Notes under the pieces: model-generated | Told to the model about the DNA's origin: nothing | Databases searched by the model: none | Seen by the model: the letters and a program-made list of their open reading frames with translations, nothing else | From: Ruthenibacterium lactatiformans | Lineage (GTDB): Bacteria; Bacillota; Clostridia; Oscillospirales; Ruminococcaceae | Direction: 5' to 3' | DNA: 64,000 nt | NCBI RefSeq assembly: GCF_000949455.1 | Contig: NZ_JXXK01000003.1 | Span: 70,831 to 134,830, forward strand | Part shown: piece by piece, positions 4,020-24,188 of the stretch | How the letters are laid out: each line of letters starts with the position of its first letter | How positions within the stretch are numbered: position 1 is the stretch's first letter | Made by a program: the position numbers and the translations under genes

Positions 4020-5402
4020 TCAATTGAAAACTTGGACAAACGTATTTTCGCTCAGCTGCTCCGGCAGCAGGGCCGGCACATAGGCGTAGGTCACGCTCTT
4101 GTAGCCTTCCGGGTCTCCGTCGTCAAAAAAAGGCGCTTCGCCGTCCGGGCTGTCGATCAAAAAGCAGTAAACGGGCTGGATGGTATCCATCAGGCGGCTC
4201 CGGTAATAGGTGATCTCCCAATGCAGGATATTCACCGCACCGCCGTCGTAACCGCCCTGCGTGCCGCCGATCCAGGCCTCACCGGCCATCAGCGCGCCCT
4301 TTGCGTCGTCCAGCGTGCGCAGGGCATAGGTGCCCAGCACCTGTGGTTCCAGCGGGAACGTCACAGCGGTCAGGTCCCCTTCCGGCGCGGAAAGCTGGAT
4401 GCGCCGGAAGCTGTAATTGTACAGCTTTTGCGCCAGCGTGTCCGAAGCGCTCCCCGCTTCATAAAACGCACTGATGGCCGTACTGTACTCTTTGTAGATA
4501 TTATAATCGCCCGTGGATTCAAACGCAGGATTTTCCAGCGTCACAAACTTCGCGCCGAAATGATCGTAGAAATAGCGGTACAGCGCTTCGCCAGACAGCC
4601 CTTTCGGCGCAGCCAATAAGTTATCCCCCTGTTCATACCGGTAAAAACGTACCTCCTGCCCGTTTAGGGAATAGCTTACGCCGTCCGCCTTGCCGCTGGC
4701 ATAGGGGCTGTAATACGCCGTGTCCAGCGGGCCGGAGGTATCGTATGAAAACGCCTCCAGCGTGCCGCCCAGTTTGGCCGCCGTGTCCTCCAGCGCCGCG
4801 CGCATCTCTGCTTCTCCGTCCGGCACCGCATACACAGGCAGCTCTGTGGGCAGTTCCCCGGCAGGCAGGTCATAGGTGGGGTTCGCGCCCGCCAGGTCCG
4901 CATCCGTCCGGACGGTAATATCTCCCATGCCCATACCGCCGCCTTCCGCGGCGAACAGCAGCCTGCCCTCCTTGCGCGCGCCGGCCTGCGCGTCCTCCGT
5001 TGTCTCCGGCGCTGCCGCCGCAGAGCTTGCCGTGCCCGCTGTGTCCTGCGCTGCGGCGACGCGGGGCGCCTGTTCCGTCTCCTGGCCCTCGTCCGCCGCG
5101 CCCCCGGCGCTCTGCAGGCTGTACTGCGCGGGGGCGGCGCTGCCCGCCGGGCGCATCGCCACGCCCCAGAACCAGGCCGCCGGCACCGCCAGCAGCGCCA
5201 CCGCCGCCGCGACGGGCAGTGCCGCGCGGCGCAGGCGCGGATGTTTTTTGCCCGAAACGCGCAGTGCCGGCCGCCCGGCCGCGCCCGGCGCTTCCTGCTC
5301 CGCCTCGGCGGCGCGCATTTTGGCCAGCGTGTCGGTCATCCATTCCTCGCTGGGGGCCAGCTTGCCGAACGCGGAGATATAATCGTCTTTATACATCGTC
5401 AA
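4020..5402 (-). CDS. putative anti-sigma factor (single TM, large extracytoplasmic domain)
   Basis: start overlaps stop of ECF sigma gene; cytoplasmic N-terminus, one TM helix (AALPVAAAVALLAVPAAWFWGV), Ala/Gly-rich linker, ~300 aa C-terminal domain. Confidence 0.5.
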   Translation of the reverse strand: MTMYKDDYISAFGKLAPSEEWMTDTLAKMRAAEAEQEAPGAAGRPALRVSGKKHPRLRRAALPVAAAVALLAVPAAWFWGVAMRPAGSAAPAQYSLQSAGGAADEGQETEQAPRVAAAQDTAGTASSAAAAPETTEDAQAGARKEGRLLFAAEGGGMGMGDITVRTDADLAGANPTYDLPAGELPTELPVYAVPDGEAEMRAALEDTAAKLGGTLEAFSYDTSGPLDTAYYSPYASGKADGVSYSLNGQEVRFYRYEQGDNLLAAPKGLSGEALYRYFYDHFGAKFVTLENPAFESTGDYNIYKEYSTAISAFYEAGSASDTLAQKLYNYSFRRIQLSAPEGDLTAVTFPLEPQVLGTYALRTLDDAKGALMAGEAWIGGTQGGYDGGAVNILHWEITYYRSRLMDTIQPVYCFLIDSPDGEAPFFDDGDPEGYKSVTYAYVPALLPEQLSENTFVQVFN

Positions 5403-8437: not shown

Positions 8438-10273
8438 ATGAACGAGCAACCCAAACCCAATAAAAAGCCATTCTTTTACTATGCGATGATCGCGATGCTC
8501 ATCCTGATGCTGCTGAACGCGTTTGTGTTCCCCAGCCTGATGACCCCGCGCGTGACGGAAGTAAGCTATGACAAGTTCCTGGACATGCTTTCGGGCGGCC
8601 AGGTGACCGTGGTGGAGCTGCAGGAAAACGAGCGTGAGCTTTATTTCAAAGCTGCAGATGAAAACGGGGCGGAACGGATCTACTCCACGGGCGTGTTCCC
8701 GGACGCGGACCTGCAAAAGCGCCTGTCCGAGAGCGGCGTCACCTTTTCCGCCGTGGCTCCGCAGGAAAACAGCACCCTGATGAATTTCCTGTTCACCTGG
8801 ATCTTCCCCACGCTCATCCTGATCCTTCCCATGGTGCTGTTGTGGCGTATGATGCAAAAGCGCATGGGCGACGGCAGCAATATGATGTCCTTCGGCATGG
8901 GCAAGAGCAACGCCAAGATGTACGTGGCCGCTCAGACGGGCAAGACCTTTGCCGACGTGGCCGGGCAGGAGGAGGCCAAGGAAGCGCTGGAGGAGATCGT
9001 GGATTTCCTGCACAATCCGGATAAATACCGCAGCGTGGGCGCCGTAATGCCCAAGGGCGTTCTGCTTGTCGGCCCTCCGGGCACCGGCAAGACGCTGCTG
9101 GCCAAGGCTGTGGCCGGCGAGGCCAATGTGCCGTTTTTCTCCATCGCGGGCAGCGAGTTTGTGGAGATGTTCGTGGGACAGGGCGCGGCCCGTGTGCGCG
9201 ACCTGTTCAAACAGGCGAAAGAAAAGGCCCCCTGCATCGTGTTCATCGACGAGATCGACACCATCGGCAAAAAGCGTGACGGCAGCGGCATCGCGGGCAA
9301 CGACGAACGCGAGCAGACGCTCAACCAGCTGCTCAGCGAGATGGACGGCTTCGACGGCTCGTCCGGCGTCGTCATTCTGGCGGCAACCAACCGTCCCGAA
9401 ACGCTGGACAAAGCGCTTCTGCGCCCCGGCCGTTTCGACCGCCGTGTGCCCGTCGAACTGCCGGACCTGCAGGGCCGCGAGGCCATTCTGCGTGTCCATG
9501 CCAAGGACGTGATGATGGCCGACGACATTGATTATAAGGCCGTGGCGCGGGCTACCTCCGGCGCGTCCGGCGCAGAGCTTGCCAACCTTATCAACGAAGC
9601 CGCGCTGCGCGCCGTCAAGTGCAACCGCCGCATCGTCACACAGGAAGACCTGACGGAATCCGTAGACGTGGTGGTGGCGGGCTACCAGCGCAAGAACGCA
9701 GTGCTTTCGCCCCATGAAAAAGAGATCGTCGCCTATCACGAAATCGGCCATGCTCTGGTTGCCGCGCTGCAGTCCAATTCCGCGCCCGTGACCAAGATCA
9801 CCATCGTGCCGCGCACCTCGGGTGCGCTGGGCTATACGATGCAGACGCCGGAGGCCGACACGGTGCTGCTCTCCAAGGAAGAGGCGCTGGCGAAGATCGC
9901 CACGCTGACGGGCGGGCGCAGCGCCGAGGAGCTGATCTTCGGCAGCGTCACCAGCGGCGCGTCCAACGACATCGAGCAGGCCACCAAGCTGGCCCGCAGC
10001 ATGGTAACGCGCCTGGGCATGAGCGAAACATTCGATATGACGGCGCTGGAGACCGTGAGCAACCAGTATCTGGGCGGCGACGCAGCCCTGGCGTGCAGTG
10101 CCGAGACCGCCACCAAGATCGACAAAGAGGTGGTGGAGATCATCCGCACAGCCCACGAAAAGGCCATCGGCATTTTGAAAGACAACATGGATAAGCTGCA
10201 CGAGCTTGCCAAATATCTGCTGGAAAAAGAGACCATCACCGGCGATGAATTCATGGCGATCCTGAATCGGTAA
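8438..10273 (+). CDS. ftsH: ATP-dependent zinc metalloprotease FtsH
   Basis: [15 protein letters not shown] start with RBS GAGGAG; N-terminal TM, Walker A GPPGTGKT, Walker [12 protein letters not shown], zinc motif HEIGHA; 611 aa; the long upstream ORF extension (7547-) is unsupported. Confidence 0.9.
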
Positions 10274-10283
10274 AAAATAAGCG

Positions 10284-10322
10284 GCAGGCCTACGTCCCAT
10301 ATGGGACGTAGGCCTGCCGTAA
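10284..10322 (+). other. 17-bp perfect stem-loop between ftsH and the MATE gene, without U-tract
   Basis: GCGGCAGGCCTACGTCCC-atat-GGGACGTAGGCCTGCCG, immediately followed by the MATE RBS AAGGAG. Confidence 0.4.
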
Positions 10323-10335
10323 GGAGTTTTGCGGC

Positions 10336-11701
10336 ATGAACAGCACTTCGGAACAGCAGGATGCACAGCACCTGCGTATGACGACCGCACCGGTGCCGGG
10401 GCTTATCCTCTCTCTCCGTCCCCAGCATCATCACCTGCATCATCACTTCGGTCTACAACATGGCCGACACGTTCTTTGTGGCGCAGCTGGGCACGGCCGC
10501 CGTAGCAGCGGTGGGCGTTGTGTTTTCCATATCCTCGGTGCTCTCTGCACTGGGCTTCTGGATGGGTACAGGCGGCAGCAGCCTTGTCAGCCTGTATCTG
10601 GGCGCACGGGAAAAGGAAAAGGCGCACTGCGCCGCCAGCACGGGCTTTTTTCTTACTTTGGGGCTGGGCGGCGTGATCGCTGCGGGCGGGCTGCTGGCGC
10701 TGCAGCCGCTGATGCGCCTGCTGGGCAGTACCGATACCATCCTGCCCGAAGCCGAGGCTTACGCCGTTCCCATCCTGCTGGCTGCGCCTTTCCAATGCTC
10801 CAGCCTGGCGCTGGCGCAGTGCCTGCGCGCCGAGGGAAAAAGCAAGGAGAGCATGGCCGGGCAGCTTGCAGGCGGGCTTTTGAACATTGTGCTGGACCCT
10901 CTGTTCATTTACACGCTGGGCATGGGCATCCGGGGTGCGGGCGCGGCCACGGCGCTCAGCCAGGTGATGGTGTGGGCCGCGCTGCTGTGGTTCTATGTGC
11001 GCGGCAAAACATCCGTGCGCATTTCGGTGCGGCAGGTGGCCCGCACCCCGCAGATGGTGAAGCTGATTTTCACCACAGGCTTTCCCAGCCTGTGCCGTCA
11101 CTGCGGCAACGCGCTGGCCACCATCGTGCTCAACCGCGCAGCGGGCGGCTTTGGAGACGCTGCCATCGCCGCGTTCAGCATCGCATCCCGCGTCTCGGGG
11201 CTGGCGCTCTCCGTGTCCATCGGCTTTGTGCAGGGGCTTCAGCCCGTGGCCGGCTACGCCCACGGCAGCAAAGACCACGCGCGGCTGAAAAGCGCGTTCC
11301 GCTTCTGCTGCGCCGCCAGTATGTCCGCTCTGACGGCGCTGGCCGTGATCATTGCCGCAGCCGCGCCATGGATCGTGCGCATGCTCAGCCCCAGCGACGG
11401 CGGCCTTGTGGAAACCGGTGCGGCCGTGCTGCGCGCCACCTGCATCGCACTGCCGTTCACCACGTTCATCAACTGCACGGGCACGCTGTTCCAGGCCATA
11501 CGGGAAAGCGCGCGCAGCAGCGCGCTGGTTCTTGGCAAACAGGTGTGCGTCTACATCCCGCTGCTGCTGGCCCTGCCCCGCGTCTGGGGCATGAACGGCC
11601 TGATGGCCGCAATGCCGCTGGCCGACGCTCTTGGCTTCGTTGCCGCGCTGTGGATGGCCCGCAGCTATTTTGCATATACAGCTACCGTTGCAGAACTATA
11701 A
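10336..11701 (+). pseudogene. MATE family efflux transporter with an apparent +1 frameshift in a (CT)4 tract at 10408-10417 (5' 24 codons in one frame, remaining 413 codons in the next)
   Basis: AAGGAG-N9-ATG at 10336 opens MNSTSEQQDAQHLRMTTAPVPGLILSL; frame +1 continues SVPSIITCIITSVYNMADTFFVAQLG... through 12 TM helices; the joined sequence gives the canonical MATE TM1 (PVPGLILSLSVPSII...SVYNMADTFFV); the downstream frame has no start codon before M at 10460, which would lack TM1. Confidence 0.55.
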
Positions 11702-11718
11702 AAGCTCTTACTAATAAA

Positions 11719-12564
11719 TTAATTATCGTTCATACCAAATTTAAAGCTCAATAACTTTCTCTTATAAAGAGTCTCCAAATCAATAATTTCATTACTCGTC
11801 AACGTTTTGGGTAAAATTTGTAAAATCGAAAACTGAAAATCCTGATACCGCTCCGGATAGCAGCAAATCAATTCTTTCATCAGCTTATTACCGCCATGCA
11901 GAGTAGATACATAGTAGGACCAGCGCCCCAACAAACCGCCTTCCCCGTACGCTGACCCGACATACTGTTTTCCCGTTGTCCGGTCTACAATTAAATAAAT
12001 CGCATTTACGGATGAAAGCGCCGTATGCCATTCGCTGTATACGGATTGGTTCTCTACAATTTCTTTTAGTTCCCTGTAAGATAAAATCAGATTTTCATAT
12101 CCCGAAAAAACCATGTTGGGCGCAGAGGAAATCGACACAATCGGTTTTTCTGTACTCCCTTTTTGATGCCACGCGCGTGCCGCCGTTCCCCAGTCGATGA
12201 CCAATCGATTTTCATACTCTGACAGAGATTCTACCCGCGATAAATCGTAATACTCATTTTCGCCCTGAAACCATTCTTTCCTCGGGAAACCATCCGGCGC
12301 GACATCCGGTGTATCCGGCACGGAATCTCCCACCCTATAACATGCATAGAATTTTGCTTTGGTCCCTTTGTCGCTGATAAATACCGCCCAATAGTCATAT
12401 CCCCGGCTGAAACCCCTTTTTTGCTGCCTGGTATATTCCAAAACCATTTTTTTATTATAACAGGCTTTAAAGCCCGGGTCAGTCAGCGCGTGACGAATCA
12501 GTTTCACCTTGGCAGGATCTAACCCCACTCGGCATAGCACGTCTGAAAAATATAAAATAGCCAT
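11719..12564 (-). CDS. GIY-YIG nuclease family protein with ~180-aa N-terminal domain of unknown function (low-GC, likely horizontally acquired)
   Basis: C-terminal AIYLIVDRTTGKQYVGSAYGEGGLLGRWSYY...ILQILPKT matches the GIY-YIG motif set; start MAILYFSD with RBS GGAGGGG; GC clearly below flanking genes. Confidence 0.6.
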   Translation of the reverse strand: MAILYFSDVLCRVGLDPAKVKLIRHALTDPGFKACYNKKMVLEYTRQQKRGFSRGYDYWAVFISDKGTKAKFYACYRVGDSVPDTPDVAPDGFPRKEWFQGENEYYDLSRVESLSEYENRLVIDWGTAARAWHQKGSTEKPIVSISSAPNMVFSGYENLILSYRELKEIVENQSVYSEWHTALSSVNAIYLIVDRTTGKQYVGSAYGEGGLLGRWSYYVSTLHGGNKLMKELICCYPERYQDFQFSILQILPKTLTSNEIIDLETLYKRKLLSFKFGMNDN

Positions 12565-12643
12565 TTTTCCCCTCCAAAAACCGCCTGTTTTCAGCACAGT
12601 GAAAGCAGGTGGTTTGTTCATTTTATTCGTGCATGCCGCAAAA

Positions 12644-13228
12644 TCATTTCGGCTGTTCCGTCGCAGCCTCTGCCGCGGTTCCCTTCTCCGGCTTCTCCTC
12701 CGCCTGTGCGGCGGCTTCGGCCTGCTCCGTCGCTTCCTCCGCGGCAGCCGCCTGCGCGGCGTCCGCGGCCTCCTCCACCGCCTGCGCGCCGGCGGCCACG
12801 GTCTCCTTTACGCGCTCCAGCAGGTCCTCCGCGCCGTCGCGCAGACGGCCCGCAACGGCGGGAGCCTCCTCAGCCACATATCCGGCAAACGCCGAGCCAG
12901 CGTCCGCCACCGCGTCGCCCGCTTCATACAGCGCGTCTCCGGCGTCGTGCAGCGCCCCTTTCAGCTCCACGGTATCCACGCCCGCTTTCTCGGCAGTGCC
13001 TGTCACCACTTCTTTTACCTTTGCGCCCGCGTCGCTCAGCACGCCGCCCGCCGCGCGGGCAATATCCTCCAGCACGCTGCCCGCGGGTACGTCCTGCGGC
13101 TCGGCCCCGGCGGCTGCCGCCGCAGCGTCGGCCACTTTGTTTTCCTCATATTTTTGGGCCACCTTCAATGCGGCGAAAGCGGCGCCCGCCGTTACGCCAA
13201 GGCCCAGCAAGCCTTTTAAAAATCCCAT
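12644..13228 (-). CDS. YtxH-like (DUF948) Ala/Glu-rich membrane-associated protein
   Basis: N-terminal MGFLKGLLGLGVTAGAAFAAL typical of YtxH family; remainder low-complexity Ala/Glu/Gly-rich; RBS AAGGAG. Confidence 0.5.
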   Translation of the reverse strand: MGFLKGLLGLGVTAGAAFAALKVAQKYEENKVADAAAAAAGAEPQDVPAGSVLEDIARAAGGVLSDAGAKVKEVVTGTAEKAGVDTVELKGALHDAGDALYEAGDAVADAGSAFAGYVAEEAPAVAGRLRDGAEDLLERVKETVAAGAQAVEEAADAAQAAAAEEATEQAEAAAQAEEKPEKGTAAEAATEQPK

Positions 13229-13405: not shown

Positions 13406-13876
13406 TTATGCCTGCGTGCGCTCGATCTCCCGGATGCGCGCAAAGCCTTCGTGTACCATACCGGCTTTGTCCGGCGTCATGCCGTCGCACCAGCCGCTGT
13501 CCACAAATGCCAGTGCCATACGCCCGGCCACCGCGGGGGTCACGACTTTTTCGCCCATGGCCATCACGTTCGCGTTTGTGATGCGCCGCAGCTCGGCGGC
13601 AGTATATTCGCTTTCACAGGCCACGGCGTATACGCCGCGAAACTTGCCGGCCGTCATGCATACGCCGGCGCCGCTTCCGCACATCACAAAACCGCGCTCA
13701 TACGCGCCGCTCTGAATGGCGCGCGCCAAAAGCTCGCCCGCCTCGTAATAGCGCACGGTCTCATCCTCCCGCTGCTGGCCAACGTCCGTAACGTCGTGGC
13801 CCGCCTCCCGCAGCACCTGCTTGACATGCTCTTTCAAACGGAATCCCGACGCATCGGATGCAATGGCGATTTTCAT
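13406..13876 (-). CDS. rpiB: ribose-5-phosphate isomerase B (RpiB/LacAB family)
   Basis: MKIAIASDASGFRLKEHV... 156 aa, conserved catalytic Cys in CGSGAG context; RBS AAAGGAG. Confidence 0.8.
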   Translation of the reverse strand: MKIAIASDASGFRLKEHVKQVLREAGHDVTDVGQQREDETVRYYEAGELLARAIQSGAYERGFVMCGSGAGVCMTAGKFRGVYAVACESEYTAAELRRITNANVMAMGEKVVTPAVAGRMALAFVDSGWCDGMTPDKAGMVHEGFARIREIERTQA

Positions 13877-20318: not shown

Positions 20319-21853
20319 AGCAGGACAAGCGCCCCGCGGGCGCGGCCGTAAAAAAGCGGCGTTTTTTCAACAGGATCAGCCGCAAGCTGATGCTGTTTGT
20401 TGTGCTGATGAGCATGGTGCTGCTGGCGCTGGTGTGGCTGCTGAGCGTAAAGCTGCTGGAGCCCATGTACAACCGGCGCGTGCTCGCGGATCTGAACCAT
20501 GCGGCGGACGTCTATTCCGCCATCATTGAAAAATACGGCAAATTCGAGAGCTTCGACAAGAGCGGCGGCGTTCATATTCCCTCAGACATGATGGAGGAGA
20601 TCATGGACAACCGGGGGCTGCTGGCCGGAAAATGCTTTGAGGTAGCCGGAACAGACTGCAAGGTCCTGCTGCATCTTCACCAGCTGCAGTCCGACCAGTG
20701 CCTGCTGCATCCCAATCCGCTGAGCCAGCTTATGGAATATTCAGAGCCGCAGTGGAACAGCACCGCAGCCGTCAACCTGCGGGCCACGACCTTCGTACTG
20801 GGAGACCTGAACTTTACTCTGCCGGACTCCCGCATCCTGCCCGGCCTGGAAAGCACCTCCGGCACCCGGCAGATGGTGGTGTGCCGCAACATCAACAACC
20901 AGTATTCTCTCATCCTCTCCACAGACCTGGAGCGTGTGGGCCAGGCCGCCGACGTCATCAGTGCGCAAATGCCCATCATTGCCGCCGTGCTGCTCATCGT
21001 CAGTATTGCGGGTGCTTATGTATTCAGCCGCTGGTTCACAAAACCCATCTCGGCCATTTCCCGCGCCGCGCGGGAGATGGCACGCGGCAATTACAAGGTG
21101 CGCGTCACGCCCCAGGCGGATGACGAGCTGGGCGCGTTGGCCGGGGATTTCAACACCATGGCCCGGGAGGTGGGCCGCACCTCGGAGCTGCAGCGGGACC
21201 TCATCGCCAATGTCAGCCACGACCTGCGCACGCCGCTGACGCTCATCAAGGGCTATGCCGAGACGGTACGCGACCTGACGGGCGACAACAAGGAAAAGCG
21301 GGACGAACAGCTCTCGGTCATCGTGGACGAGACCGACCGCCTCTCCGGCCTTGTGAACAGCGTGATGGAGCTTTCCAAATATTCCTCCGGCACCGAAAAG
21401 CTCAATCCCGTCCAGTTCGACCTGGCACAGCTGTGCGACGAAGTGGCCTACCGCTACCAGAATATCTGTGAGCAGAGCGGCTACACCCTCACGGTAGATG
21501 CTGCCGGCCCCTGTACCGTAACGGCAGACCCGGACATGATGAGCCGTGTGGTGCACAATCTGCTGGCGAACGCCATCCATCATATCGGGCCGGACGGCTG
21601 TGTGGCGCTGCGCGTAAAATCGCAGCCGGACGCCGCCGTGCGGGTAGAGATTGAGGACCACGGCGCGGGCATTGCCCGGGAAGATCTTCCCTATATCTTT
21701 GACAAATACTACCGCTCCCGCGCGGACGCCGGCAAGGTCGGCACAGGGCTGGGGCTTTCCATCACAAAGGCCATCCTCATCAACCACGGCTTTCCCTTCG
21801 GTGTGGACAGCGAACCCGGCAAGGGCAGCATTTTCTGGTTCGTCGCTCATTGA
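20315..21853 (+). CDS. sensor histidine kinase (2 TM, HAMP, HisKA, HATPase_c)
   Basis: H-box LIANVSHDLRTPLT, N/G1/G2 boxes (HNLLANAIHH, IEDHGAGI, GTGLGLSI); 512 aa. Confidence 0.8.
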   Translation: MKQDKRPAGAAVKKRRFFNRISRKLMLFVVLMSMVLLALVWLLSVKLLEPMYNRRVLADLNHAADVYSAIIEKYGKFESFDKSGGVHIPSDMMEEIMDNRGLLAGKCFEVAGTDCKVLLHLHQLQSDQCLLHPNPLSQLMEYSEPQWNSTAAVNLRATTFVLGDLNFTLPDSRILPGLESTSGTRQMVVCRNINNQYSLILSTDLERVGQAADVISAQMPIIAAVLLIVSIAGAYVFSRWFTKPISAISRAAREMARGNYKVRVTPQADDELGALAGDFNTMAREVGRTSELQRDLIANVSHDLRTPLTLIKGYAETVRDLTGDNKEKRDEQLSVIVDETDRLSGLVNSVMELSKYSSGTEKLNPVQFDLAQLCDEVAYRYQNICEQSGYTLTVDAAGPCTVTADPDMMSRVVHNLLANAIHHIGPDGCVALRVKSQPDAAVRVEIEDHGAGIAREDLPYIFDKYYRSRADAGKVGTGLGLSITKAILINHGFPFGVDSEPGKGSIFWFVAH

Positions 21854-21873: not shown

Positions 21874-21914
21874 AAAAAGGGACCTCCCGCACCTGCGGGA
21901 GGTCCCTTTTATTT
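21874..21914. terminator. bidirectional rho-independent terminator
   Basis: AAAAAGGGACCTCCCGCA-cctgc-GGGAGGTCCCTTTTATTT. Confidence 0.7.
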
Positions 21915-22035
21915 GTAGAAAAACCACCGGCTATGCCGGTGGTACGGAAAAGCTTAAGCTATGAAAAGAAACTCCTTCCAGTAAAATGGCAGTGCGGTCT
22001 GGCAACTGCACGAACCAACAGAAGGAGGCCATTCA

Positions 22036-22068
22036 GTGAATGACAATAATAGTTTAGCGCATACAAAA
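22036..22068 (+). pseudogene. tnpA: 5' stub of IS200-family tnpA (GTG start, codons 1-11: VNDNNSLAHTK)
   Basis: RBS GAAGGAGG 7 nt upstream of GTG; NSLAHTK is the conserved N-terminal motif of IS200/IS1541 transposases and is continued by WNCKYHIV at 23654. Confidence 0.5.
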
Positions 22069-22124
22069 GTACAGTTTACAAGGGTCTACACAGGGTAGGT
22101 ATCTGACGGGAGGGGTTCCGCCCG

Positions 22125-22268
22125 TCAGATTTTCCATGTGATGTTCAAACTGTCGCTTGTGGCGGCTATGATGGTAATCATCAAGTCCATCACCCGCCGC
22201 TTGTCGTCAAAGGATACATTCTCCCAGGTGTCGAGGTAGCCGTAAATCTGGCTGACCTGTTCCAGCAG
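22125..22268 (-). pseudogene. 47-codon C-terminal remnant resembling the end of a large serine recombinase
   Basis: LLEQVSQIYGYLDTWENVSFDDKRRVMDLMITIIAATSDSLNITWKI*, with an in-frame stop immediately upstream; followed by a 10-bp perfect hairpin ATCTGACGGG/CCCGTCAGAT. Confidence 0.3.
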
Positions 22269-22343
22269 TTAGCGAAGAAGATGATTAAGCAGGTGGGAAA
22301 GTAATCATAAAGAGTAAAGAGAAAAAAGGAAATAAAATTCACG

Positions 22344-22372
22344 TTGTCCGCAAAAAGAGAGTGTGATATAAT
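22344..22372 (+). promoter_or_regulatory. strong sigma-A-type promoter for the methyltransferase gene (-35 TTGTCC, 17 bp, extended -10 TGtGaTATAAT)
   Basis: TTGTCCgcaaaaagagagtgtgaTATAAT ~38 nt upstream of RBS AAAGGAG. Confidence 0.6.
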
Positions 22373-22410
22373 GTGGTTAGCTAAAGATAACTATGAAAGG
22401 AGCATTGTGT

Positions 22411-23034
22411 ATGTCTTTTTTTCAAAATACTTGTAAGCCCAAAGGGATTGGCGGCAAAATTATGGTTAATATGATGAATACCGGACATTCATCTATGGCT
22501 GAATGGGGATTTACGCATATAGAAATTAGAAATAATTACATATGTCTGGATATTGGGTGTGGCGGTGGAGCAAATGTAAAAAAGCTATTGGCAAAAACTC
22601 CATACGGCAAAGTGACAGGTATTGATTATTCAGAAATTAGTGTAATAAAATCCCAAAAAATCAATAAGGCAGAAATAGAAAATAGGCGTTGCGAAATCTT
22701 GCAAGGTAATGTAATGAAACTTCCTTTCGGAAATGAAACTTTTGATATAATTACTGCGTTTGAAACAATATATTTTTGGCCTGATATTAATGAGGCATTT
22801 AAGCAAGTATATCGAGTTTTGAAAGGCAGCGGAACTTTTATGATTTGCAACGAATCAAATGGCGAAAATTCCAAAGAAGAAAAGTGGACTAAGATTATAC
22901 AAGGAATGAAAATATACAATTCTGGACAAGTCAAAAAATCTTTAGAGGGTGCTGGTTTTACAGACATAAAAATACACAAAAATGAAAAAGGCTGGCTCTG
23001 CGTAGTTTGTAAAAAAGATAAAGATGTAAATTAA
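22411..23034 (+). CDS. class I SAM-dependent methyltransferase (Methyltransf_11/25-like), low GC
   Basis: motif I LDIGCGGGANVKKLL, motif post-I VTGIDYSE, motif II FDIITAFETIYFWPD; start ATG 22411 (MSFFQ...) with RBS AAAGGAG; substrate not inferable. Confidence 0.7.
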   Translation: MSFFQNTCKPKGIGGKIMVNMMNTGHSSMAEWGFTHIEIRNNYICLDIGCGGGANVKKLLAKTPYGKVTGIDYSEISVIKSQKINKAEIENRRCEILQGNVMKLPFGNETFDIITAFETIYFWPDINEAFKQVYRVLKGSGTFMICNESNGENSKEEKWTKIIQGMKIYNSGQVKKSLEGAGFTDIKIHKNEKGWLCVVCKKDKDVN

Positions 23035-23650
23035 CTATTGTTTTCTCAATAGCAAAGACAGCCGGGAAAGCCCTAAAATGGCTTCCCGCCCATTTCAATT
23101 TTGAAAAAAGAAACGCTCCAAAATCAGAAAGAGGGCGGCCAAGTACTTCGGAGGATTGGCCGCCTTGTCCACCCATTCAGCGGGACGGTGGGCGGCGGTC
23201 AAGGCCGGGTGTAAACTCGTTCATTTCAGCCCTGACGCTTGCCCGCTGTCCTGCTACTTTTCTGGGAATGTGGCCACACTTCGGGACACTTTGTCCACAA
23301 GTCGGAGCGTAGGTCGAGGGACAGGGGCTTTCATATACGCCCTGTCTGCTGATGAAACCAGACCTGCGCTTGCGGCTCCACGCCACGCAAGCACAGCCCT
23401 GTTTTCCTGCCGCTTCAAATGCCCTTGCCCTCCCCGGCGGCAACGGCATTTTCACGGCAACGCCGACAGAGCGTATAACACACTACACTTTGCTACGCAA
23501 AGTCGTGTGCCAAAGGGGTACCCTTTGGAAACCCCAAACAACAAAACAGGCTGAATATCTCGCACTTTCCCGGTGCTTGATACTCAGCCTGTATTTGTTG
23601 TCAGCAGCCTCCGTTTCGTGGTCTGCGTGTAGTTCTTTGTAAACTGACCT

Positions 23651-24079
23651 AAATGGAATTGCAAATACCACATTGTGTTTGCGCCGAAATATCGGCGCAA
23701 ACTGTTCTACGGAGAAAATCGAAAAGAGATAGGAGGGATTTTGAGACAGCTCAGTGAATGGAAAGGAGTAAAAATAGTAGAAGCAGAAGTGTGCCCGGAT
23801 CACATCCACATGCTGGTAGAAATCCCACCGAAAATGAGTGTGGCGGGATACATAGGATTTCTCAAGGGGAAAAGCAGTTTGATGATTTTTCAACGACACG
23901 GGAATCTGAAGTACAAATATGGGAATCGATCATTCTGGTGCAGAGGGTACTACGTGGACACCGCAGGAAAGAATACGAAAAAGATCGCGGAATACATTCA
24001 AAATCAGTTGAAAGAAGATCAACTTACAGATCAGATGACGTTAAAGGAATACATGGACCCGCTTGCGGGTAACAAGTAA
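23651..24079 (+). pseudogene. tnpA: IS200-family transposase TnpA body (codons 12-152), lacking its own start because of the upstream insertion
   Basis: KWNCKYHIVFAPKYRRKLFYG...PDHIHMLVEIPPKMSVAGYIGFLKGKSSLMIF...RGYYVDTAGKN: HuH motif and catalytic Tyr of Y1 transposases; an in-frame TGA lies 2 codons upstream of K. Confidence 0.6.
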
Positions 24080-24154
24080 CAATCCTATGCAAGTGTCAGA
24101 CCGTTATGCGCCTTGAGGCGCTGCCTGTATCATAGGGCTTTGCCCGCATCTGAA

Positions 24155-24188
24155 ATACCCCCGGCTTCGCCGGGGGATATTTATTTCC
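24155..24188. terminator. bidirectional rho-independent terminator / IS right-end hairpin
   Basis: CCCCCGGC-ttc-GCCGGGGG followed by ATATTTATTTCC; T-run also present on the opposite strand. Confidence 0.6.

What the first reader, a model, noticed from the sequence alone, without database searches (positions are those of the whole stretch)
10336..10470. MATE efflux gene with +1 frameshift inside a (CT)4 dinucleotide tract near its 5' end
An ATG at 10336 with AAGGAG-N9 spacing opens a frame encoding MNSTSEQQDAQHLRMTTAPVPGLILSL. The canonical continuation of MATE TM1 (SVPSIITCIITSVYNMADTFFVAQLG) is in the +1 frame, which is closed by TGA at 10379-81 and has no start before M at 10460. The frames cross at CCTCTCTCTCC (10407-10417). 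One extra CT unit, (CT)5, or loss of one nucleotide would give a continuous 455-aa transporter. This is either a phase-variable simple-sequence contingency locus switching an efflux pump ON/OFF, a recent pseudogenisation, or an assembly error. A 10460 start would lack TM1.
Basis: seen in the sequence. Interest (0 to 1): 0.5.

Follow-up and report, generated by a model that had tools for sequence, protein, structure and literature searches.

The report
Two-base deletion inactivating a MATE efflux gene
A drug/metabolite efflux pump gene of the gut bacterium Ruthenibacterium lactatiformans is switched off in this strain by loss of one CT unit from a short CTCTCTCTCT run; the lesion is real and inherited by a widespread clone, with one apparent reversal, but it is an ordinary slippage mutation, not a dedicated genetic switch.

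Summary
AAGGAG-N9-ATG at 10336 opens 27 codons of a MATE transporter. The rest of the protein (PF01554) continues in the +1 frame, and the frames cross at (CT)4, 10408-10415.

- **Intact form:** intact orthologues carry (CT)5. Adding one CT gives a 455-aa protein identical to WP_443722108.1 of Ruthenibacterium lactatiformans.
- **Not an assembly error:** the same (CT)4 allele, with no nucleotide difference across the MATE gene, occurs on 14 indexed contigs. The ten read came from at least eight projects and three assemblers.
- **Confined to one clone:** members of that clone differ by at most 4 SNPs per 21 kb. All 43 contigs of other lineages have (CT)5. The one exception is a (CT)4 contig that is chimeric and has 1x coverage.
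- **One reversal:** one clone member (L115) has (CT)5 and sits phylogenetically inside the (CT)4 group. The likeliest history is one deletion followed by one reversion.
- **Not a maintained repeat:** sister species encode the same Leu-Ser-Leu-Ser with non-repetitive codons. The tract is short and no other lengths were seen.

Best reading: a recent slipped-strand null allele fixed in one clone, occasionally reversible. It is not a classical contingency locus. Interest is low to moderate.

The parts
10282..10319 (.). Perfect 17-bp-stem hairpin between ftsH (stop codon at 10271-10273) and the MATE gene. It is probably the ftsH terminator. It ends 2 nt before the MATE ribosome-binding site, so there is no room for a separate promoter.
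   Evidence: (17 pairs, 13 G-C) and the sequence. Many metagenome contigs break here.
10321..10326 (+). Shine-Dalgarno AAGGAG, 9 nt upstream of the ATG at 10336.
   Evidence: Conserved in all orthologous loci aligned.
10336..10416 (+). 5' segment of the MATE gene, frame 0, codons 1-27 (MNSTSEQQDAQHLRMTTAPVPGLILSL).
   Evidence: tblastn of the repaired protein matches residues 1-27 here at 100%. The N-terminus is identical to intact orthologues P0001-P0011.
10408..10415 (+). (CT)4 tract and site of the 2-bp deletion. Intact alleles have (CT)5, codons CTC TCT CTC TCC for L-S-L-S.
10379..10381 (+). TGA that closes the +1 (MATE body) frame upstream of the tract.
10415..11701 (+). Body of the MATE gene in the +1 frame (S28/V29 to the stop codon). 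It holds both MatE domains and has no further lesions.
   Evidence: residues 26-454 at 100%. There is no nucleotide difference across it among clone members.
10460..10462 (+). First start codon of the +1 frame. Gene callers start the 413-aa truncated product here. It has no Shine-Dalgarno sequence and lies within TM1.
   Evidence: The upstream sequence CACTTCGGTCTACAAC has no purine-rich motif.

Best explanation
The gene is the ftsH-adjacent MATE-family efflux transporter of Ruthenibacterium lactatiformans.

**What happened.** In the ancestor of one near-clonal, widely distributed lineage, replication slippage removed one CT unit from a (CT)5 run. That run exists only because Leu-Ser-Leu-Ser of TM1 happens to be encoded as CTC TCT CTC TCC.

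**Consequence.** Ribosomes starting at the strong RBS/ATG at 10336 read 27 correct codons and then run out of frame. The wrong frame stays open to 11754, so no in-frame stop is met that could permit re-initiation. The only in-frame start for the body, 10460, has no RBS and lacks the first half of TM1. The pump is therefore very probably not made: a null allele or young pseudogene.

**Persistence and reversal.** The allele is stably inherited through the clone. It can revert by regaining a CT unit, and this seems to have happened once (L115). The rate is that of a short incidental repeat, not that of an evolved contingency locus.

**Shown:** the lesion, its reality, its clonal distribution and the nested intact relative.

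**Inferred:** slippage as the mechanism, absence of protein, and the direction of the L115 change.
For: - **Frames and repair:**
- **Intact orthologues:** they read LILSLSVPSII and carry (CT)5 in the DNA.
- **Repaired protein:** it is identical to WP_443722108.1 of R. lactatiformans.
- **Recurrence of (CT)4:** the same allele, with no nucleotide difference in the MATE gene, is on 14 indexed contigs (10 read) from different projects and assemblers.
- **Other lineages:** all 43 distinct non-clone contigs have (CT)5. They differ from the window at 18-32 sites in the 1.3-kb gene, or by about 0.6-1.9% over longer flanks.
- **L115:** it differs from the window by 4 SNPs in 21.3 kb plus the CT unit.
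- **Clone haplotypes** (positions 4202/8923/9383/tract/19285): outgroups G/C/G/5/G, window G/C/G/4/A, L138 G/C/G/4/G, L140 T/C/G/4, L139 T/T/C/4, L002 -/T/C/4, L115 T/T/C/5/G. L115 is therefore nested inside the (CT)4 group: one deletion plus one reversion explains the data, against at least 3 independent deletions.
- **Sister taxa:** they encode the same residues without a repeat, CTT TCC CTC TCC and CTC TCG CTG TGT.
- **Repeat content of the window:** no enrichment of dinucleotide repeats.
Against: - No read-level, transcript or protein data exist here, so loss of function is inferred.
- The nested (CT)5 member, and a second (CT)4 in another haplotype (L095, 1x coverage, chimeric), could mean the tract mutates faster than a one-off mutation would suggest.
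- L115 is a scaffolded MAG. A recombination patch shorter than 451 bp, lying between the clone-specific SNPs at 10204 and 10655, could also have restored (CT)5.
- The body of the gene shows no decay, so a functional reversible OFF state cannot be told apart from a very young pseudogene.
Confidence: 0.75

Rival explanations
1. A true simple-sequence contingency locus. The CT tract would be a selected, hypermutable ON/OFF switch for the efflux pump, flipping reversibly at high frequency, as H. pylori oipA does with its 5' CT repeats.
For: - The tract is in the 5' coding region, and a change of one unit toggles the frame.
- Both states occur within a clone that differs by 4 SNPs per 21 kb or fewer, and the (CT)5 member is nested among (CT)4 members.
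- A possible independent (CT)4 occurs in another haplotype (L095).
- Two scaffolds break exactly at the tract with a 55-nt graph overlap.
Against: - All 43 non-clone contigs are (CT)5, and only two lengths occur. oipA by contrast shows 29 patterns, with 386 ON and 150 OFF among 536 sequences (PMC10564699).
- Within the clone the census is 14 OFF to 1 ON.
- The tract has at most 5 units. From my own knowledge, this is shorter than known phase-variable dinucleotide tracts.
- Sister species do not keep the repeat, and the window has no enrichment of such repeats.
- L095 is a chimeric contig at 1x coverage.
Confidence: 0.13
2. A sequencing or assembly error in the window's genome. The real sequence would be (CT)5 and the gene intact.
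For: Dinucleotide runs can be miscalled, and a near-identical MAG (L115) has (CT)5.
Against: The identical (CT)4 is present on 14 indexed contigs (10 read) from at least 8 projects. These were assembled with SPAdes, MEGAHIT and Logan from Illumina data, and L138 matches the window at 21,240 of 21,242 positions.
Confidence: 0.02
3. The gene is still expressed despite the frameshift. This could happen through programmed +1 ribosomal frameshifting or transcriptional slippage at CUCUCUCU, or as a functional N-terminally truncated 413-aa transporter starting at M10460.
For: The +1 frame is fully intact downstream with no further lesions, and the conserved TM1 Asp (YNMAD) lies just after M10460.
Against: - Orthologues are in-frame, so the shift is not a conserved recoding site.
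- There is no stop or rare-codon pause and no homopolymer at the site.
- There is no RBS before 10460.
- The truncated product loses MatE profile positions 1-13 and the N-terminal half of TM1.
- The frame-0 ORF stays open to 11754, so termination followed by re-initiation is impossible.
Confidence: 0.04
4. The (CT)5 in L115 is not a slippage reversion. Either a short homologous-recombination patch was imported from a (CT)5 strain, or L115 kept the ancestral state while several independent deletions occurred in the clone.
For: The flanks from 10204 to 10655 are identical between the clone and many other strains, so a patch shorter than 451 bp would leave no other trace. Different strains of this species may share a gut, which would allow exchange (my inference; co-occurrence within one sample was not tested here).
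Against: A patch that short must fall exactly on the tract. Independent deletions would need at least 3 events, against 2 for the reversion history.
Confidence: 0.2

Closest known systems
MATE (multidrug and toxic compound extrusion) family transporters, Pfam PF01554; orthologue WP_443722108.1 of Ruthenibacterium lactatiformans
   Same: The repaired ORF is 455 aa with two MatE stretches covering the profile end to end. It carries the TM1 motif ...PSIITCIITSVYNMADTFFV and is identical to the NCBI protein.
   Different: In the window the ORF is split by a 2-bp deletion after codon 27, so no full-length transporter is encoded.
Helicobacter pylori oipA (hopH) and related hop genes: CT-dinucleotide phase variation in the 5' signal-peptide coding region
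   Same: A CT dinucleotide run sits within the first ~30 codons and encodes Leu/Ser of a hydrophobic N-terminal segment. A change of one unit toggles the reading frame by slipped-strand mispairing (PMC10564699).
   Different: oipA tracts are longer and highly polymorphic among strains: 29 patterns, with both ON and OFF common. Here only (CT)5 occurs outside one clone, only 4 or 5 units are seen, and relatives do not conserve the repeat.
Strain-specific frameshift pseudogenes arising at short incidental repeats (ordinary slippage indels)
   Same: A single indel in a short repeat, inherited clonally, in an otherwise intact gene with intact orthologues in sister strains.
   Different: There is one apparent exact reversal inside the clone, which is less usual for a plain pseudogene.

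Membership tests
MATE transporter (PF01554) | Two MatE domains covering a ~450-aa, 12-TM protein | tested here: met
   The repaired protein scores 161 bits (cutoff 24.9) with 2 stretches. The first covers profile positions 1-161 at residues 30-190.
MATE transporter (PF01554) | One continuous ORF from the RBS-linked start through TM1 to TM12 in this genome | tested here: not met
   Frame 0 (10336-10416) and frame +1 (10415-11701) are joined only if one CT is added.
Simple-sequence contingency locus (phase-variable gene) | A repeat tract in the coding region where unit gain or loss toggles the frame | tested here: met
   (CT)4 is out of frame. (CT)5 gives a 455-aa product identical to WP_443722108.1.
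Simple-sequence contingency locus (phase-variable gene) | Tract length polymorphic across strains and lineages, with several lengths and both ON and OFF states common | tested here: not met
   All 43 non-clone contigs have (CT)5. (CT)4 occurs only in one clone plus one chimeric contig at 1x coverage. No other lengths were found, although the pattern allowed 0-14 extra bases.
Simple-sequence contingency locus (phase-variable gene) | Reversibility (OFF to ON as well as ON to OFF) | tested here: inconclusive
   L115 (CT)5 shares three derived SNPs with L139 (CT)4 and is nested in the (CT)4 group. This rests on a single MAG, and a short recombination patch is not excluded.
Simple-sequence contingency locus (phase-variable gene) | The repeat is maintained or expanded beyond what coding requires, and conserved as a repeat in relatives | tested here: not met
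   Sister taxa use CTT TCC CTC TCC and CTC TCG CTG TGT for the same residues. The window has no dinucleotide run of 5 or more units.
Simple-sequence contingency locus (phase-variable gene) | Length heterogeneity within a single population or colony | not testable with these tools
   No reads are available. The only indirect hint is the scaffold breaks at the tract in L116 and L117.
Recent pseudogene / null allele | The ORF is disrupted relative to intact orthologues, and the disruption is vertically inherited | tested here: met
   14 indexed contigs of one clone share it (10 read), and close and distant relatives are intact.
Recent pseudogene / null allele | Absence of functional product | not testable with these tools
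   Inferred from the frame structure, the missing RBS at 10460 and the truncated TM1.
Programmed +1 ribosomal frameshift (prfB-like recoding) | The frameshift is conserved among orthologues, with a slippery or pause site | tested here: not met
   All orthologues are in-frame. There is no in-frame stop or known shifty motif at 10408-10419.

The most novel reading that the evidence does not exclude
A (CT)4/(CT)5 tract of only five units in the TM1-coding region acts as a genuine, selectable and reversible ON/OFF switch for a MATE efflux pump in a strictly anaerobic gut commensal. On this reading the OFF state swept through a globally distributed clone and the ON state was regained at least once. 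That would be phase variation operating at an unusually short, non-conserved repeat in Oscillospiraceae.
Probability: 0.13. Interest if true: 0.5.

Novelty: new member of a known kind. Interest (0 to 1): 0.28.

Why it matters
For annotation, this gene should be marked as a frameshifted pseudogene or OFF allele. It should be neither a 413-aa protein starting at 10460 nor a sequencing error to be "fixed".

For biology, it gives a clean natural knock-out of one MATE pump in a widespread R. lactatiformans clone, together with a near-isogenic intact relative. That pairing could be used to test what the pump exports. It is also a small documented case of a probable exact reversion of a slippage frameshift in a gut commensal.

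It does not reveal a new mechanism.

Tried and rejected
1. **GTDB genome contigs.** The DNA pattern scan found no match. The protein-based scan returned only relatives at 45% identity or less. Neither helped, so species-level comparison came from ENA, Logan and NCBI contigs instead.
2. **P0132 (a 413-aa member of another haplotype).** It looked like an independent frameshift, but L116 and L117 are scaffolds with N100 gaps and the truncation is a scaffolding artefact. L116 actually carries (CT)5.
3. **L095.** It has (CT)4 in a different haplotype, but coverage is 1.07x and the contig is chimeric after 660 nt. It is kept only as a weak hint.
5. **L115 as a chimeric consensus from co-resident strains.** Rejected as the main explanation, because L115 carries the clone-specific alleles at all flanking sites, including 10204 and 10655.
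6. **Literature search** on R. lactatiformans plus frameshift found nothing relevant.
7. **A MATE paralogue in the window** that could compensate: none found.

Full report
**Observation.**
- A perfect 17-bp-stem hairpin (10282-10319) follows ftsH (8438-10273). AAGGAG (10321-10326) follows 2 nt after the hairpin, then 9 nt and ATG at 10336.
- Frame 0 encodes MNSTSEQQDAQHLRMTTAPVPGLILSL and then becomes Arg/His/Gly-rich nonsense. Because the DNA is G+C-rich, that wrong frame stays open to 11754.
- The +1 frame encodes SVPSIITCIITSVYNMADTFFVAQLG... through to the stop at 11701. It is closed upstream by TGA at 10379-10381, and its first start codon is ATG at 10460.
- The frames cross in C(CT)4CC at 10407-10417.
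- Adding one CT gives a 455-aa protein with two MatE stretches: PF01554 at 161 bits, profile positions 1-161 at residues 30-190.
- The 10460 start loses profile positions 1-13 and everything upstream, that is the first half of TM1. It has no Shine-Dalgarno sequence.

**What the intact gene looks like.**
- The repaired protein hits a 90%-identity cluster of 1333 sequences, whose members read ...PGLILSLSVPSII....
- In DNA these members carry (CT)5, codons CTC TCT CTC TCC for L-S-L-S.
- An exact look-up shows that the (CT)5 repair of the window's own haplotype exists as WP_443722108.1, [quoted passage not shown].
- The alternative repair by deleting one nucleotide (454 aa) is not in the collection.
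- The lesion is therefore a 2-bp (one CT unit) deletion, and the organism is R. lactatiformans.

**Is it an artefact? No.**
- The truncated 413-aa product that gene callers start at M10460 is indexed on 14 contigs. I read ten of them (L138/L001, L139, L140/L003, L141/L004, L142, L002, L005-L008).
- They come from at least eight projects and from SPAdes, MEGAHIT and Logan assemblies.
- All have (CT)4 and show no nucleotide difference from the window across the MATE gene.
- L138 matches the window at all but 2 of 21,242 positions.

**Distribution.**
- A pattern scan that allowed any tract length (0-14 extra bases) found 23 metagenome contigs: 22 with (CT)5 and one with (CT)4 (L095).
- I then sampled contigs without regard to the MATE state, through the neighbouring FtsH protein and through the downstream 281-aa protein. 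This gave 20 loci (19 distinct contigs), all with (CT)5 and an intact 455-aa gene.
- In total, 43 distinct contigs of other lineages carry (CT)5. They differ from the window at 18-32 sites in the 1.3-kb MATE gene, or by about 0.6-1.9% over longer flanks.
- No length other than 4 or 5 was seen.
- L095 has (CT)4 on a different SNP background, but its coverage is 1.07x and it is chimeric after 660 nt. I treat it only as a hint.

**Inside the clone.** L115 (NCBI GCA_052305655.1, contig DAWBJP010000005.1) differs from the window over 21.3 kb by four SNPs, two scaffold N-gaps and the CT unit. It has (CT)5. The table gives allele states at the four SNP positions and the tract. A dash means the contig does not cover that site.

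| Sequence | 4202 | 8923 | 9383 | tract | 19285 |
|---|---|---|---|---|---|
| outgroups | G | C | G | 5 | G |
| window | G | C | G | 4 | A |
| L138 | G | C | G | 4 | G |
| L140 | T | C | G | 4 | - |
| L139 | T | T | C | 4 | - |
| L002 | - | T | C | 4 | - |
| L115 | T | T | C | 5 | G |

- L115 shares three nested derived SNPs with (CT)4 members.
- The most parsimonious history is one CT loss at the base of the clone and one CT regain in L115. Keeping (CT)5 as the ancestral state in L115 would need at least three independent deletions.
- A chimeric consensus is unlikely, because L115 carries the clone's alleles at the nearest clone-specific sites, 10204 and 10655.
- For the same reason, a recombination patch restoring (CT)5 would have to be shorter than 451 bp.
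- This is suggestive evidence for an exact reversal, but it rests on one scaffolded MAG.

**Is the tract an evolved switch?** The evidence says no.
- The closest sister sequences keep the residues but not the repeat. L143 (89% amino-acid identity) has CTT TCC CTC TCC, and L144 (70%) has CTC TCG CTG TGT.
- The window has no dinucleotide run of 5 or more units and no excess of 4-unit runs: 15 observed against about 19 expected.
- The best-known analogue is the 5' CT repeat of H. pylori oipA. It shows 29 repeat patterns and 386 ON / 150 OFF among 536 sequences (PMC10564699).
- Here one state is universal outside a single clone, and within the clone the census is 14 OFF to 1 ON.

**Mechanism (inferred).**
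- Slipped-strand mispairing removed one CT from an incidental (CT)5.
- Translation from the strong RBS at 10336 goes out of frame after codon 27 and cannot terminate and re-initiate before 11754.
- The internal ATG at 10460 lacks an RBS and would give a transporter without a complete TM1.
- The pump is therefore very probably absent: a young pseudogene or null allele.
- The allele has persisted while the clone spread through many human gut samples, which implies the pump is dispensable there.
- Programmed +1 frameshifting is not supported, because orthologues are in-frame and no shifty or pause motif is present.

**Verdict.** Assembly error is excluded. The lesion is a clone-fixed slippage frameshift with one probable reversal. 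A classical contingency locus is not supported, though low-rate reversibility remains possible (about 0.13). It is a new instance of a known kind, of modest interest.

Noticed in passing
window 11671-12653: A 982-bp strain-variable cassette replaces about 570 bp found in other strains. It carries a minus-strand ORF (11719-12564, 281 aa) with a borderline GIY-YIG nuclease domain: PF01541 at 22.0 bits against a cutoff of 22.6. It rewrites the last codons of the MATE gene, so the C-terminus reads ...FAYTATVAEL instead of ...FRRAQHAAAL. The cassette is common, listed in 1204 index blocks, usually next to an intact MATE gene.
   Followed up: partly
window 21914-24180: A segment of about 2.27 kb is absent from eight of the ten related contigs compared (L129-L131 and L133-L137): their alignments jump from 21914 to 24180. 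It contains a class-I SAM methyltransferase ORF (22393-23034; Methyltransf_11, 74.8 bits).
   Followed up: partly
L010 and L011 (positions 1-1340), equivalent to window 10369-10433 and about 10740: Two Logan assemblies of another lineage carry a 65-bp deletion between CACCTGC direct repeats. It removes the CT tract and the start of TM1. They also carry a 33-bp in-frame deletion. This is an independent 5' lesion of the same MATE gene.
   Followed up: partly
window ~13531 (RpiB/LacAB gene, minus strand 13406-13876); L138, L001, L006: A sub-branch of the same clone has a 1-nt deletion here. It shortens the RpiB/LacAB gene call from 156 to 132 aa, a second frameshift polymorphism within the clone.
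   Followed up: no
window 9383 (ftsH codon 316): The G>C change (Ala to Pro) in the AAA+ motif ILAATNRP of FtsH is shared by the L115, L139 and L002 sub-lineage. This is a surprising substitution in a conserved motif.
   Followed up: no
L116 4850-5000 and L117 1940-2095 (equivalent to window 10412-10466): Two scaffolds have an N100 gap whose right-hand contig starts exactly at CTCTCCGTCC. In L116 it overlaps the left contig by exactly 55 nt, so it looks like an assembly-graph branch at the tract. A simple (CT)4/(CT)5 bubble would branch 4 nt further left, so the cause is unexplained. It might reflect in-sample heterogeneity.
   Followed up: partly
window 10282-10319: Many independent metagenome contigs begin or end inside the perfect ftsH-MATE hairpin. 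The hairpin ends 2 nt before the MATE RBS, so the MATE gene probably depends on read-through from ftsH or on a promoter inside ftsH.
   Followed up: no
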